From a virus (taxonomy: Duplodnaviria > Caudoviricetes): 64,000 bases of DNA. The position numbers and the translations under genes are program-made. Below, one piece after another: positions 48,693 to 63,975 of this stretch. Under the pieces are notes generated by a model, which was given only the letters and a program-made list of their open reading frames with translations, had not been told where the DNA came from and ran no database searches. The stretch spans positions 11,359 through 75,358 of the IMG/VR virus record IMGVR_UViG_3300021387_001438; one strand, 5' to 3'. Numbering within the stretch: position 1 is the stretch's first letter; each line of letters opens with the position of its first letter.

Positions 48693-49433
48693 TTATAAAT
48701 TCTCACAAATCCAATTATGACAGATAGTTGTATCAACAATTACCTCTGATTCATTACGAGCTTCATAGCATGCCAAGATAGCATCTGGATTTGTAATGAC
48801 CATTTTATATAATTTTGGATTTGTATTATTTCCAGCTTTATTAAATCTTTCAGCAAACCATCTTGCTTTTTCTTTATCAACAGTCCATGATAAACCTTCA
48901 GGCTTTCCATTATGACTTACTCCTCGATAGACAGTTACTCCTGCTGGAAGTGAAGCAAGTCTTTTTAGAGTATTAAATGTATCAATCTCTTTTTTATCCA
49001 TCAAGAAATCTTTATTTGCTTTTTTGAAATATCTTATTAGTTCTCTTCTATTTACATTATTATCTTGATTTGGCCATTCTTCCATTACATAGAATTCAGA
49101 TAATAGCTTTGAAAAATCTTCATTAGATAAATAGATATTAACATATTTGAAGAAAGTCAAGTAATAACTTTTATTTAACAACATGACAATTCCAAACAAA
49201 TCTTTTGCATTATCAATCTTTTCAAATGTTTCAGACTTAAAGATTTCATAATCCTCTTTTTTATATAAATCTAAAATTTTTGGATTATCTTGATTTTCTT
49301 TTACTGATACATATAAATTATTACTTGTAAACGGATGTTGAATTATAAAAGGAATTTTTGTTGCTTTAATTGGCACTGCCAAAAATAGCAACTTACTCAT
49401 TTCTTTAATCTTATCTAAATTAGTTTGTTTCAT
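48693..49433 (-). CDS. Putative ADP-ribosyltransferase-fold protein
   Basis: R-S-E triad-like motifs VYRG, LSWT, NESEV; AAGGAG RBS. Confidence 0.55.
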   Translation of the reverse strand: MKQTNLDKIKEMSKLLFLAVPIKATKIPFIIQHPFTSNNLYVSVKENQDNPKILDLYKKEDYEIFKSETFEKIDNAKDLFGIVMLLNKSYYLTFFKYVNIYLSNEDFSKLLSEFYVMEEWPNQDNNVNRRELIRYFKKANKDFLMDKKEIDTFNTLKRLASLPAGVTVYRGVSHNGKPEGLSWTVDKEKARWFAERFNKAGNNTNPKLYKMVITNPDAILACYEARNESEVIVDTTICHNWICENL

Positions 49434-49461: not shown

Positions 49462-50084
49462 TTGCCTCTACCATACACTAGCTCACTTTGCCTACACACT
49501 ACCATACTCGACTCTACCATAACATGACTGCCTGTTACTTTACCATAACTGGTCTACTCCTCGCTTTGCCGAAACTTCACTTTACTAAACCTTACCTTTG
49601 CATTTCAAATCTTGACTTCGCCCATACGATATTATGCTGGACCCAACGTCACCGATACATTGTTACACCAATCTTTGCCTAAACTAGGATGTACTATACA
49701 ATTCCAAAACGGTACCATAAATTGCTTTGCCTAAGCTCCACGATGCAAGACTTTACCAATACTCTACCTTACGTCACTAGACTTCACCTTGACAATACCA
49801 TGTCTTACTTTACCACAACTAAACACTAATTAACTTCGGTCCACTTTGCCTTGACTAAACTTATCTACACCGATACTGTTTATTAGTCTACTATACTGTA
49901 CCTCTACCTTACCAAACTTTACCATAGCACGACCAATCCTTACATCACCTTCACTAAACTTAATGGCACTTTACTTTTCCGTAACATAACCTTTCAAGAC
50001 TATGCCAATGCACAACTTCTCTTTAATACACTTTGCCAAAACGCCACCCTACCAATCTTGACTTATCCATTACAAGACGAGGCC
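49462..50084 (-). ncRNA. 5-nt periodic NGY-NN repeat array (putative guide RNA array), downstream of the RAMP gene
   Basis: Minus strand e.g. AGT-tt-AGT-gaa-GGT-ga-TGT-aa-GGA-tt-GGT-cg-TGC-tat-GGT-aa-AGT-tt-GGT-aa-GGT; GY steps of 5,6,5,5,5,5,6,5,5,5,6; no minus-strand ORF of 60 aa or more in the track. Confidence 0.75.
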
Positions 50085-50120
50085 TATACTTTATTTAATA
50101 TATATTAATATAGGATTGAA

Positions 50121-50143
50121 GGAGAGAGACTAAATCTCTCTCC
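50121..50143 (-). promoter_or_regulatory. Hairpin spanning the stop codon of the RAMP gene
   Basis: GGAGAGAGA / TCTCTCTCC perfect 9-bp inverted repeat with a 5-nt loop containing the TAG. Confidence 0.6.
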
Positions 50144-50720
50144 AACTGAATGAACCCTTACCGGAATTACGCCACTGAAGAAGTCCATTGAATTTTCCAT
50201 AATCTAACCATTCTTTAATTAATGGTAGGTCTTCATCACACAACATAACAATCTTAAATTTACATGTTGCACCGGCAGCAATTTCTTCAGAAATAGCAAG
50301 CGAGATTCTTTCACCCTGCATTGTTTGACATCTTAGAGGTCTCTGACATTCTGTGATTTCAGAATAATTCTCAATCACATTTTCTCTTCCTTCAACAAAT
50401 ACTCTTAGGTCAATATGCTTCTTGAAGGCTTTTAATTGACTAGATAGAGTACCTTTAACTTTTGATAGTGCTGAACATGCAGACTTGAAGAATCCTTTTA
50501 ACTGATAGTCATAAATAAATGGCTTACCATCTTTGGTTCTTGGAAAGAATGTTTTACCTTTATCAACAACATTATCTTTTCCAATGGCTTCAATCTCTTC
50601 TTCTAGCTTCTGAGCATCTGGAGCCTTACTACCGATGAATGAACGATATACATCTTTATCTCCTGTTTGAGTTCCTAATAAACCCTGTAAAAAAGTTACT
50701 TCAATATTTAATGTTTTCAT
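50130..50720 (-). CDS. Stand-alone Cas7/RAMP-like protein (Vipr-like), 196 aa
   Basis: TAAGGAG RBS supports MKTLNIEV at 50720; RAMP hallmarks LNIEVTFLQGLLGT, GKPFIYDYQLKGFFK and the G-rich loop YGKFNGLLQWRNSGKGSF. Confidence 0.75.
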   Translation of the reverse strand: MKTLNIEVTFLQGLLGTQTGDKDVYRSFIGSKAPDAQKLEEEIEAIGKDNVVDKGKTFFPRTKDGKPFIYDYQLKGFFKSACSALSKVKGTLSSQLKAFKKHIDLRVFVEGRENVIENYSEITECQRPLRCQTMQGERISLAISEEIAAGATCKFKIVMLCDEDLPLIKEWLDYGKFNGLLQWRNSGKGSFSWREI

Positions 50721-50802
50721 AATTTGTTTTAATCTCCTTAATTTATTATTTGTTTTAATCTTCTGAATTTTTTGGTCTTCACATCTTGGATAATCTACAT
50801 CT

Positions 50803-51103
50803 TTTGCCAATGCCATACAAAACCACACTTTACCATTACCGGACCGGACAATACTTTTCCATTGCACTTTTGGACAATACTTTACCAACACGACAGCCAA
50901 CTATTCTATGCTGGTACTTTACCAACACTGTTCCAAGCTATTCCATTACAGTACCATACCAAACCTTACCAACACTCCACTGAACAAGGCCTTGCCGTCA
51001 CAAATCTTTTCTTGGTATCACATCACCATCACAAAACCACGCTTTACCATTACCGTCACAACGCCACACCTCACCGTCACAACGCCACACATCACCGATA
51101 CTT
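50803..51103 (-). ncRNA. 5-nt periodic NGY-NN repeat array, upstream of the RAMP gene
   Basis: Minus strand GGT-ga-TGT-gt-GGC-gt-TGT-gac-GGT-ga-GGT-gt-GGC-gt-TGT-gac-GGT; steps 5,5,5,6,5,5,5,6; internal 21- and 26-bp period duplications. Confidence 0.75.
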
Positions 51104-51107
51104 TTAG

Positions 51108-51425
51108 TTACAAGAAATCTACGATGAAGTTTGTGATATATGCCATAAACAATACTTTATCTTTGGTATAGAACGACATATAGGTTTCTCCTGTCGACTT
51201 GTCACAGGTGTAGCAAGAATATAATCCGGAAGAATTTGTATCTGACGATGGATAGTCAAACACTAGTTTAACTTCTCTTGAATTACCATCAAGATTAAAT
51301 TTAGTTGGCAAATCTTTTTCTTTTAATTTTTCTGACAAAACCCGTTTGATAAACTGAACTGCCAAATTATCTTGTAGGTCTGGAGAATTAACTAATTCCG
51401 TCAAATTCTTAATTTCTTTCTGCAT
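51108..51425 (-). CDS. Hypothetical protein
   Basis: GAGGTGAG RBS; its stop abuts the upstream array. Confidence 0.6.
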   Translation of the reverse strand: MQKEIKNLTELVNSPDLQDNLAVQFIKRVLSEKLKEKDLPTKFNLDGNSREVKLVFDYPSSDTNSSGLYSCYTCDKSTGETYMSFYTKDKVLFMAYITNFIVDFL

Positions 51426-51685: not shown

Positions 51686-51727
51686 AATGTAAATATTAAT
51701 TCTTTGAACTTCTAAACTTACATACTT

Positions 51728-51756
51728 ATTATATAATACTTTTTATACTTTGTACA
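51728..51756 (-). promoter_or_regulatory. sigma70-type promoter reading into the RAMP/array locus
   Basis: TGTACA-17 nt-TATAAT on the minus strand. Confidence 0.5.
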
Positions 51757-52058
51757 CATATTTTTAATAAAATTTTATTTTTTTTCTTCTTATAAAAATA
51801 CGTGTGTGCACATATGCACACGTAATAAAAAATAAAATATAAATAAGATATGAACATGAATAAAATAAAAAATATTTATATTCATAATGATGCACCCAAA
51901 ATATTTTGAATATATGACTGTTCAGAAATATTTATTATGTTTTATGGATTTTTAGTATACCTAAAATTTGAATACGATTATAGCTTGATTGTTTTGATTT
52001 TGGATTGTGTGTTTAACGATTTATAGGAGAATATTTTAGGCACATCATTATAAATATA

Positions 52059-52101
52059 AATATTAAATTTGATTGATTTGAATATTAAATTTGATTGATT
52101 T
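52059..52101. repeat. Tandem direct repeat, 21 bp x2
   Basis: AATATTAAATTTGATTGATTT at 52059-52079 and 52081-52101. Confidence 0.85.
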
Positions 52102-53158
52102 ATTTTCTATATTTATTATATATCATAACTTGTAAAACGTAAATAAGTTAATGTAAAAACAATAAATTTTATTGGTTACGATGAAACAAAAAACAGCGAA
52201 AATGCTATACTGGCGAAGCAGAATAGCTGGAAAATTAGGAACAATAAAAAGGAAAAGAGAATGAAAATTACTTAAAAAGTTACTTAAAAACAACTTAAAA
52301 ACTTTTTTTGAGATGAAAATTAGAGTAATGAAAATGATTCAAAAATGCTGATTTAAAATGTAAATATTCCGTAACTGGAACTAAGGACTGGTAATTTAAA
52401 CTTTCAATTGGAAGTTTTAAACTATTAAATAAATTTGTGTAAAAATGTGTAAAGAACTGTAAAAAATTGTAAATCAAAAATTTTATTAAATAAGTGTGTA
52501 AGTTTAGATGAAAAACAGAGCAAAGCTCTTACACTTTTTTTACACTTTTTTACAAAACTTTACAAATTTTGGATTTAAACTCACAGATACAAATTTATTT
52601 TAAATCTATAAAGTGGGTACGGAATACTTACGTTTCAATTTTTCCTTATATAGAATGTCATTCTATATATAATAAACAACCTTCTTTTTTTCTTTTATTT
52701 TTTTTAATAATTTAAAATATTTTAATAAAGAAAATATAAAAATAATAAATAAGGTATAAAAACATATATTTTTAAAAAATAATAATAATAAAGAAGTGGC
52801 TCCAGAGTTTAAATTTTAAATTTTTGGACTCATTTTTCATTTTCAAAATTTTTTTATTTTTTCCACAAAATTAAAAACTTAAAAATAATTTTTTGGTTTC
52901 CACAAAAATTTTCTTGCGCACACACGGCCACATGCACGCAGGAGAAATTTCTCATCAACTAAAATTTTTTCCGGAAATTTTTTCGTCACCACCAACTTAA
53001 AAATTTTTTCCTCCACTTGTCAGAAGACAGGGGAGGTGGGGTCCCTCTCTCCGTCAATTCTGTTTCAATAGTCAGAAAATTATTTTTTAGAAATGGTATA
53101 CTTTTTTTCTCCTTCGATATATAATTAAATAGAAATAATTAATAGGAGGATTCTGCTC

Positions 53159-63575: not shown

Positions 63576-63611
63576 TTTTTCTCACTTTCTGTTTTATAGA
63601 CTATGCTGTCT
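63576..63611 (-). repeat. 36-bp leader repeat, copy 2
   Basis: Identical to 62934-62969. Confidence 0.9.
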
Positions 63612-63655
63612 GATTTTAAAGACTTTACTGTCTGATTTTAAAGACTTTACTGTCT
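63606..63655. repeat. Tandem repeat, 22 bp x2 plus partial
   Basis: CTGTCTGATTTTAAAGACTTTA at 63606 and 63628, then CTGTCT. Confidence 0.9.
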
Positions 63656-63739
63656 TATTTGTTTAGTATAGGGGGCCCCGGGGGCTATACTATTTATATA
63701 ATAAAAAATGACTTAAGTTTGATTTAAGTCATTCATTAT

Positions 63740-63975
63740 TATTTACAATTTTATTATACAATATTTTTTGATTATTCAAAATCGCAAAATATTATATTTT
63801 AATTTTAATTAAGAATTTTGTCTCTTAATTATTTACAACTTTATTATATTATAATTTGATAATATTTAAAATCGCAAAATTTTATATTTTAATTTTTTTG
63901 ATTTTTAAAAGTTGTTTCTTATTTATTTTCAACTTTATTATATTATATTTTTATAATATTTAAAATCGCAAGATA
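63740..63975 (-). promoter_or_regulatory. Three tandem ~90-bp units carrying early promoters
   Basis: AAAATCGCAA at 63778, 63868 and 63962; on the minus strand two units read TTGCGA-18 nt-TATAAT. Confidence 0.65.

What the first reader, a model, noticed from the sequence alone, without database searches (positions are those of the whole stretch)
50803..51103. Upstream array shows recent in-phase duplications, suggesting how guides are generated
Seen on the plus strand: ACCGTCACAACGCCACAC at 51052-51069 and 51073-51090 (period 21); GGACAATACTTT at 50846 and 50872 (period 26); TACTTTACCAACAC at 50878 and 50915; and a 24/25-identical block at 50817-50841 and 51031-51055, near both ends of the array. 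The 21- and 26-nt periods equal the higher-order blocks. Inference: the array grows and diversifies by in-register slippage or recombination rather than Cas1-Cas2 acquisition (no cas1/cas2 seen).
Basis: partly seen in the sequence, partly recalled or inferred. Interest (0 to 1): 0.72.

Follow-up and report, generated by a model that had tools for sequence, protein, structure and literature searches.

The report
Duplicated guide modules in VIPR array
The repeats lie in the upstream guide-RNA array of a phage VIPR system (a CRISPR-related DNA silencer published in 2026), and related phage variants differ by whole five-base units or whole guide modules, so the array changes by slippage and recombination; whether this creates new guides is not shown.

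Summary
Observation confirmed. The longest exact repeat is 18 nt (P=0.003), and there are 14 repeated 12-mers against 0.8 expected when units are shuffled. The downstream array shows no such excess.

The stretch is the upstream 'staggered' vrRNA array of a VIPR system. A 196-aa Cas7-like protein is flanked by two arrays of NGY-NN pentamers. These are cut into modules of 5k+1 nt (21, 26, 31 or 36 nt), each starting with one extra base plus GGY. The 21- and 26-nt periods are module lengths.

Variants support in-register change. One contig differs from the window only by one extra 5-nt unit. Other samples show +5 nt, -36 nt (one module, recombined head to head) and -62 nt (exactly two modules). 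They also show replacement of window 50862-51066..51102 by 47-99 other bases. Three other VIPR lineages show the same classes of event. The complete phage has no Cas1, Cas2 or reverse transcriptase.

Not shown: that this process creates new specificities.

VIPR is published, and this scan has already noted whole-module gain and loss on other DNA. Array dynamics are not treated in the preprints searched.

The parts
50804..51097 (-). Upstream staggered vrRNA array, 14 modules M1-M14. Each module is one extra base + GGY-NN + 0-5 further NGY-NN units. The extra bases lie at 51097, 51076, 51055, 51049, 51028, 50997, 50971, 50945, 50924, 50913, 50887, 50861, 50835 and 50809.
   Evidence: Viterbi phase parse. 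G-rich, C-poor composition. No open frame on the minus strand.
51056..51097 (-). M1 and M2: a tandem 21-nt duplication, 20/21 identical. The NN strings are identical (GA GT GT GA). The single difference is at a non-reading G1 position.
51031..51055 (-). Copy 1 of the 24/25 block: the one-unit module M3, an extra T, and the first 3.6 units of M4.
   Evidence: The one mismatch is C/T at a Y3 position.
50817..50841 (-). Copy 2 of the 24/25 block: the last unit of M12, an extra T, and the first 3.6 units of M13.
50836..50887 (-). M11 and M12: adjacent 26-nt modules that share their first three units (NN AA AT CC) and then diverge. M12 holds a perfect tandem 5-mer at 50840-50849.
50946..50971 (-). 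M7, with a tandem 5-mer (two copies) at 50952-50961. The variant L013 has three copies, which is the only difference in 1261 nt.
50862..51102 (-). Hypervariable part of the array (M1-M11). In contigs of three other samples it is replaced by 47, 49 or 99 other bases. The vipr-side breakpoint is always 50861, the M11|M12 boundary.
   Evidence: read laying joints.
50130..50720 (-). vipr: a 196-aa single-domain Cas7-like RAMP.
   Evidence: No Pfam or PHROG match. AlphaFold model with pLDDT 78; the best PDB matches are type VII Cas7 and Csm3 (E 3e-7, TM 0.57-0.62). 3927 homologues. Conserved Q-W-R-N...G loop.
49468..50085 (-). Downstream staggered vrRNA array: 23 modules of 16-36 nt, with no significant internal duplication. 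Variants show +5, -36 and -62 nt.
51108..51425 (-). Upstream 105-aa ORF of unknown family. Its stop codon lies 10 nt before the array, so the array is probably co-transcribed with it.
   Evidence: Co-transcription is an inference.
51728..51756 (-). Promoter-like site (10 of 12 consensus matches) following a terminator-like hairpin at 51804-51821. This is a possible start of the transcription unit that contains both arrays.
   Evidence: Consensus scan only.

Best explanation
The stretch is the upstream guide-RNA (vrRNA) array of a phage-borne VIPR system.

How the system works, from the literature: transcribed from the minus strand, each NGY-NN pentamer would bind one Vipr protomer. The GGY bases are sequestered and the NN bases read a DNA target, skipping every third base.

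What is seen here: the array is 'staggered'. One extra base followed by a strict GGY resets the register every 4-7 units, giving modules of 21, 26, 31 or 36 nt.

Reading of the repeats: they are relics of in-register copying within this array. There is one tandem module duplication (M1/M2), one dispersed block copy (M3-M4 against M12-M13), one partly diverged neighbour pair (M11/M12), and doubled single units. The conserved pentamer scaffold and the conserved module head (GGY-AA-AGT) supply microhomology every 5 and every 21-36 nt. Replication slippage or unequal recombination can therefore add or remove whole units and whole modules without any dedicated acquisition enzyme.

Shown here: the grammar, the excess of duplications, the Cas7-like fold, the in-register variants, and the absence of Cas1, Cas2 and reverse transcriptase.

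Inferred: transcription and loading of these modules, the slippage mechanism itself, and any role in creating new specificities.
For: Identity as a VIPR system:
- Pentamer and module parse.
- Cas7/Csm3-like fold of the 196-aa protein.
- Complete phage genome with direct terminal repeats, capsid, terminase and polymerase genes.
- Homologues of the protein in phages of 30-65% G+C carry G-skewed pentamer arrays next to the gene.
- The published definition of VIPR and of staggered arrays (bioRxiv 10.64898/2026.04.26.720920) and its structure (10.64898/2026.04.26.720927).

Duplications beyond chance.

Common descent rather than convergence: the copies also agree at the free scaffold positions G1 and Y3, and each of the two near-exact copy pairs has its single difference at a scaffold position.

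In-register change between variants:
- L013 differs by one 5-nt unit only.
- The 62-nt deletion can be placed at 49790-49851, which is exactly two modules, with 7 nt of microhomology.
- The 36-nt deletion joins two module heads.
- The 5-nt insertion doubles one unit.
- In the L002 lineage a 33-nt internal repeat flanks blocks that are present or absent in 8 variants, and there is also a 10-nt indel.
- L036 against L037 shows +20 and +21. L047 against L050 shows 5, 21 and 63.
- Internal duplications are significant in 3 of 8 arrays tested.

No Cas1, Cas2 or RVT_1 in the genome.
Against: - No RNA data: no listed sequencing run is RNA, so transcription, processing and loading of 4-unit modules are unproven.
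- Array 1 holds stubs of 1-2 units (M3, M9, M14) and a module without a GGY head (M10), so part of it may be non-functional.
- Selection for register, rather than the mutational mechanism, could explain why only in-register variants are seen.
- The contigs of other samples were seen only as alignment summaries. The replacing 47-99 bases could not be read.
- L013 may come from the same study as the window.
- One indel does not fit: 32 nt in L019, at the array's 3' end.
Confidence: 0.7

Rival explanations
1. The upstream array, or its middle part M2-M11, is a decaying, largely non-functional tract. Its repeats and length variation would be neutral microsatellite-like instability with no role in guide supply.
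For: - Stubs of 1-2 units and a headless module.
- Three other haplotypes carry only 47-99 nt in place of about 205-240 nt.
- The duplicated modules have identical NN, so they add no new specificity.
Against: - 83% of non-first units keep the NGY scaffold, as many as in the downstream array (76%).
- The copies keep the 5k+1 grammar.
- The leader-proximal M1 and the vipr-proximal M12-M14 are conserved across haplotypes.
Confidence: 0.15
2. The repeated modules are kept by selection. They would serve either as extra doses of one guide or as a tiled set of guides against variants of the same target. The similarity would then reflect function rather than recency.
For: - M4 (AA GT TT GA) and M13 (AA GT TT AT AT), and M11 and M12, share a prefix and then diverge, as variant-specific guides would.
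- In L022 two modules 426 nt apart share all six NN but differ at three scaffold positions.
- The literature reports many vrRNAs converging on one element.
Against: - No targets were identified here.
- In total, 5 of 5 differences between copies fall in the scaffold, which is only weakly unlikely by chance (0.6^5 = 0.08).
- This reading explains retention, not origin, and is compatible with the best explanation.
Confidence: 0.1
3. The NN strings converged independently and no copying took place, or the repeats are an assembly artefact.
For: - The scaffold and the head motif raise background similarity.
- The record is a metagenome assembly.
Against: - The copies also agree at free scaffold positions, and the unit-shuffle null, which keeps scaffold composition, is exceeded.
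- An independent contig (L013) and the Logan contigs of run X1 carry the same array.
- Repeats of 18-25 nt are shorter than a sequencing read.
Confidence: 0.05

Closest known systems
VIPR systems with staggered vrRNA arrays (bioRxiv 10.64898/2026.04.26.720920, fig. S18; structure 10.64898/2026.04.26.720927)
   Same: - A small stand-alone Cas7-like RAMP in a phage.
- Long intergenic arrays of GGY/NN-type pentamers on both sides of the gene.
- Adjacent guides offset by one base.
- No Cas1 or Cas2.
   Different: - The protein is not detectably similar in sequence to SUSP1 Vipr (tblastn finds only four unnamed fecal phages), so the type (I-VII) could not be assigned.
- The first G is degenerate (NGY) except at module heads.
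- Modules are short (4-7 units, against 9-16 in type II) and no 3' pseudoknot tail is evident.
- The preprints, searched by terms, do not describe array dynamics or how guides arise.
CRISPR arrays
   Same: - Guide-encoding arrays next to a RAMP gene.
- Variants differ by loss of whole units through recombination between repeats.
   Different: - No repeat-spacer structure and no Cas1-Cas2 acquisition.
- The 'repeat' is interleaved with the guide every 5 nt, so slippage can also act inside a guide.
Simple-sequence contingency loci and slipped-strand mispairing
   Same: - Gain and loss of whole short tandem units at doubled units.
- Microhomology at the junctions.
   Different: The units are not identical: only 2-3 of 5 bases are fixed. 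Events are seen where neighbouring units happen to match, or at the conserved heads.

Membership tests
VIPR system | Vipr protein: a small (~20 kDa) single-RRM RAMP with a G-loop and thumb, related to Cas7 | tested here: met
   - 196 aa. The AlphaFold model (pLDDT 78) best matches type VII Cas7 and Csm3 (E 3e-7 to 1e-5, TM 0.5-0.62).
- The conserved C-terminal Q-W-R-N..G loop parallels the D177-W178-R179 G-loop contacts described for SUSP1.
- There is no direct sequence or structure comparison with a solved Vipr: none was found in the PDB copy.
VIPR system | Intergenic arrays of tandem pentamers, with a conserved GGY (or related) triplet alternating with a variable NN, flanking vipr | tested here: met
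   - 56 + 119 units were parsed. G2 and Y3 are kept in 76-83% of non-first units, and module heads are a strict GG[YA] in 36 of 37 modules.
- Among variants, 9 of the 29 listed substitutions are C<->T at Y3.
VIPR system | Staggered array: successive vrRNAs offset by one base | tested here: met
   Every module has length 5k+1. There are 14 + 23 modules.
VIPR system | Carried by a virus or other mobile element; no CRISPR array or adaptation genes | tested here: met
   A complete 75,358-bp phage with direct terminal repeats. No Cas1 or Cas2.
VIPR system | An accessory vap gene next to vipr | tested here: inconclusive
   The neighbours 51108-51425 and 48693-49433 have no Pfam family. The latter matches only phrog_4776, of unknown function.
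VIPR system | vrRNAs are expressed, bound by Vipr, and direct DNA binding under the one-base-skip rule | not testable with these tools
   No RNA run is listed. The own genome shows no match better than shuffled guides, which agrees with the published absence of self-targeting but identifies no target.

The most novel reading that the evidence does not exclude
VIPR arrays carry a built-in, enzyme-free way of remodelling their guide repertoire. The fixed pentamer scaffold and the conserved module heads would act as slippage and recombination substrates that duplicate, delete, fuse and exchange guide modules. This would be a primitive counterpart of CRISPR adaptation, and it could explain how guide sets turn over in a system without Cas1-Cas2.
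Probability: 0.3. Interest if true: 0.7.

Novelty: new member of a known kind. Interest (0 to 1): 0.45.

Why it matters
VIPR has been proposed as the ancestor of CRISPR, but the preprints I searched do not say how its guide sets arise or change. This locus and its variants give sequence-level evidence that arrays change by whole units and whole modules at microhomologies, and that one array can be a hot spot while its flanks stay 97-99% identical. If copying followed by divergence or exchange supplies new guides, that would fill the 'adaptation' gap in the VIPR-to-CRISPR scenario. The rule that every module is 5k+1 nt long is also a practical aid for calling staggered guides.

Tried and rejected
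- Protein-coding reading of the array. All three minus-strand frames carry stops. The open 111-aa plus-strand frame follows from the lack of G and lies against the gene direction. Rejected.
- Global Fourier periodicity. It gave no 5-nt peak because the register resets every module. Only the phase-aware parse shows the period.
- Rfam: no family matched in the window.
- blastn against phage records: no match.
- TRAP-like protein sponge, G-quadruplex tract and R-loop origin. These were considered before the literature check and dropped once the Cas7 fold and the VIPR grammar fitted.
- Diversity-generating retroelement: no reverse transcriptase.
As a result, the DNA of the eight 99%-identical and nine 88-90%-identical Vipr variants could not be fetched.
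- An exact 24-mer scan of IMG/VR found nothing.
- No RNA holder is listed among the sequencing runs.
- Self-target search. The best own-genome matches of the 27 modules with 5 or more units are no better than those of shuffled guides.
- Point substitutions are not enriched in NN, either among variants of this phage (8 of 29) or in two other lineages (2 of 9 and 6 of 17). These numbers are small, and one search uses only the 40 best-supported of 134 differences.
- Target search in public collections was not attempted. Array-1 modules specify at most 12 bases, below the 14 needed for a collection scan.

Full report
**Observation.** The four repeat pairs are present exactly as listed. TRF and the repeat finder recover them independently. 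On the minus strand, which is the strand of all neighbouring genes, the region 50780-51110 is G-rich and C-poor (109 G, 33 C). It has stops in every frame. A second tract of the same kind lies at 49468-50085, on the other side of a 196-aa ORF.

**Grammar.** A plain Fourier analysis shows no 5-nt peak. A phase-aware Viterbi parse resolves both tracts cleanly.
- The units have the form N-G-Y-n-n.
- They are grouped into modules. Each module begins with one extra base followed by a strict GGY and then holds 0-6 further units.
- Full modules therefore measure 21, 26, 31 or 36 nt (5k+1).
- The upstream array has 14 modules (M1-M14) and the downstream array has 23.
- The first unit's NN is AA in 21 modules and GA in 7, out of 37. 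This gives a conserved head, GGY-AA-AGT.

**What the system is.** My first readings were a protein-binding unstructured RNA or a degenerate coding repeat.
- The preprint 10.64898/2026.04.26.720920 defines VIPR as a small phage-borne RAMP (Vipr) plus vrRNAs of alternating GGY/NN pentamers whose NN bases read DNA with a one-base skip. It also mentions 'staggered arrays' in which neighbouring vrRNAs overlap by one position.
- The structure paper shows one protomer per repeat, with GGY sequestered and NN presented.
- Here the 196-aa protein has no Pfam or PHROG family. Its AlphaFold model (pLDDT 78) best matches type VII Cas7 and Csm3 (E 3e-7, TM 0.57-0.62).
- It has 3927 homologues. Homologues in phages of 30-65% G+C are flanked by G-skewed pentamer arrays.
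- The record is a complete 75-kb phage with terminal repeats.
- I file the locus as a VIPR system with staggered arrays. The type could not be assigned, and no vap gene was recognised.

**Anatomy of the repeats.**
- The 21-nt pair is M1/M2, two adjacent four-unit modules. They are 20/21 identical and their NN strings are identical.
- The 26-nt pair is the shared first three units of the neighbours M11 and M12, which then diverge.
- The 14-mer pair is a module boundary plus the conserved head, so it is only weak evidence of copying.
- The 24/25 block is the last unit of one module, the extra T, and 3.6 units of the next. It is found at M3-M4 and at M12-M13, and it explains the odd one-unit 'module' M3.
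- Perfect doubled 5-mers lie at 50952-50961 and 50840-49.

**Statistics.**
- With units shuffled among non-head positions, array 1 exceeds the null: longest repeat 18 nt, P=0.003, and 14 repeated 12-mers against 0.8 expected. Array 2 does not.
- At NN level, three module pairs share 3 or more in-register NN against 0.27 expected, P=0.004.
- The same test is significant in two of six arrays from other lineages: L002 with a 33-nt repeat, and L022.

**Variants of this phage.**
- L013, a 1266-nt metagenome contig, differs from the window over 1261 nt only by a third copy of the doubled 5-mer in M7.
- Logan contigs from four other runs in four studies match the flanks at about 95-99%.
- In the downstream array these contigs show a 5-nt insertion that doubles one unit, a 36-nt deletion and a 62-nt deletion.
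- Re-deriving the junctions shows three things. The 62-nt deletion can be placed at 49790-49851, exactly two modules (36+26), with 7 nt of microhomology. The 36-nt deletion fuses the heads of two modules. The insertion turns a 26-nt module into a 31-nt one.
- In the upstream array, 50862-51066, -51074 or -51102 is replaced by 47, 49 or 99 other bases. The vipr-side breakpoint is always at the M11|M12 boundary.
- M12-M14 are also kept in protein-level variants whose called ORFs run into the array.

**Other lineages.**
- Eight variants of the L002 lineage (93-97% identical) differ by blocks of 97 and 73 nt bounded by the 33-nt internal repeat, and by a 10-nt indel. A 32-nt insertion at the array's end is the one event that does not fit.
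- L036 against L037 shows cassette replacements with net +21 and +20 nt.
- L047 against L050 shows 5, 21 and 63 nt.
- Taking the seven array indels of 21 nt or less between variants at least 95% identical, all are 5k or 21 nt. Under a flat length distribution this would be about (5/21)^7. That is my own rough figure and it ignores selection.

**Limits.**
- Substitutions between variants are not concentrated in NN (8 of 29). Nine are C<->T at Y3, the position that only needs to be a pyrimidine. Other lineages give small numbers.
- The duplicated modules have the same NN. The data therefore show how the array changes length and order, not how a new specificity arises.
- There are no RNA data.
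- The genome has no Cas1, Cas2 or reverse transcriptase.
- Guides match the phage's own genome no better than shuffled guides do.

**Verdict.** This is a real and statistically supported feature of a known kind of system. Its link to guide genesis remains an inference. The three VIPR preprints, searched by terms, do not treat array dynamics. This scan has already noted whole-module gain and loss in another genome.

Noticed in passing
window 48693-49433 (-): A 246-aa gene starts 35 nt after the downstream array. It matches only phrog_4776 (unknown function, E 2e-34) and no Pfam family. It is a candidate accessory (vap) gene.
   Followed up: no
window 49468-50085: Among variants in other samples, 9 of the 29 listed substitutions are C<->T at the Y3 position of a unit. 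Several others restore a canonical G2 where the window has a degenerate unit. Y3 behaves like a neutral 'wobble' site of the scaffold.
   Followed up: partly
L047:1970-1985 against L050 (terminator hairpin just after vipr): The terminator-like stem-loop after vipr appears in two near-identical variants as reverse complements of each other, that is, as a flipped hairpin.
   Followed up: no
L047-L051, downstream of vipr: This lineage (Vipr about 37% identical, 236 aa) has arrays with a different grammar. Heads resembling ATGGA recur every 35-45 nt and G-A recurs at a 5-nt period. Many 5- and 20-nt gaps separate the variants.
   Followed up: partly
window 51700-52900: A very AT-rich (12-25% G+C) intergenic region holds several short tandem repeats: 22 nt x2 perfect at 52059-52101, 11 nt x3.4 at 52264-52301 and 10 nt x3.7 at 52437-52473. 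It is a candidate origin or regulatory region.
   Followed up: no
window 63584-63975: Tandem repeats of 22 nt (3.5 copies) and 94 nt (2.6 copies) lie near the end of the window.
   Followed up: no
L022:748-778 and 1174-1204: In a relative with a 70%-identical Vipr, two 31-nt modules 426 nt apart share all six NN dinucleotides but differ at three scaffold positions.
   Followed up: partly
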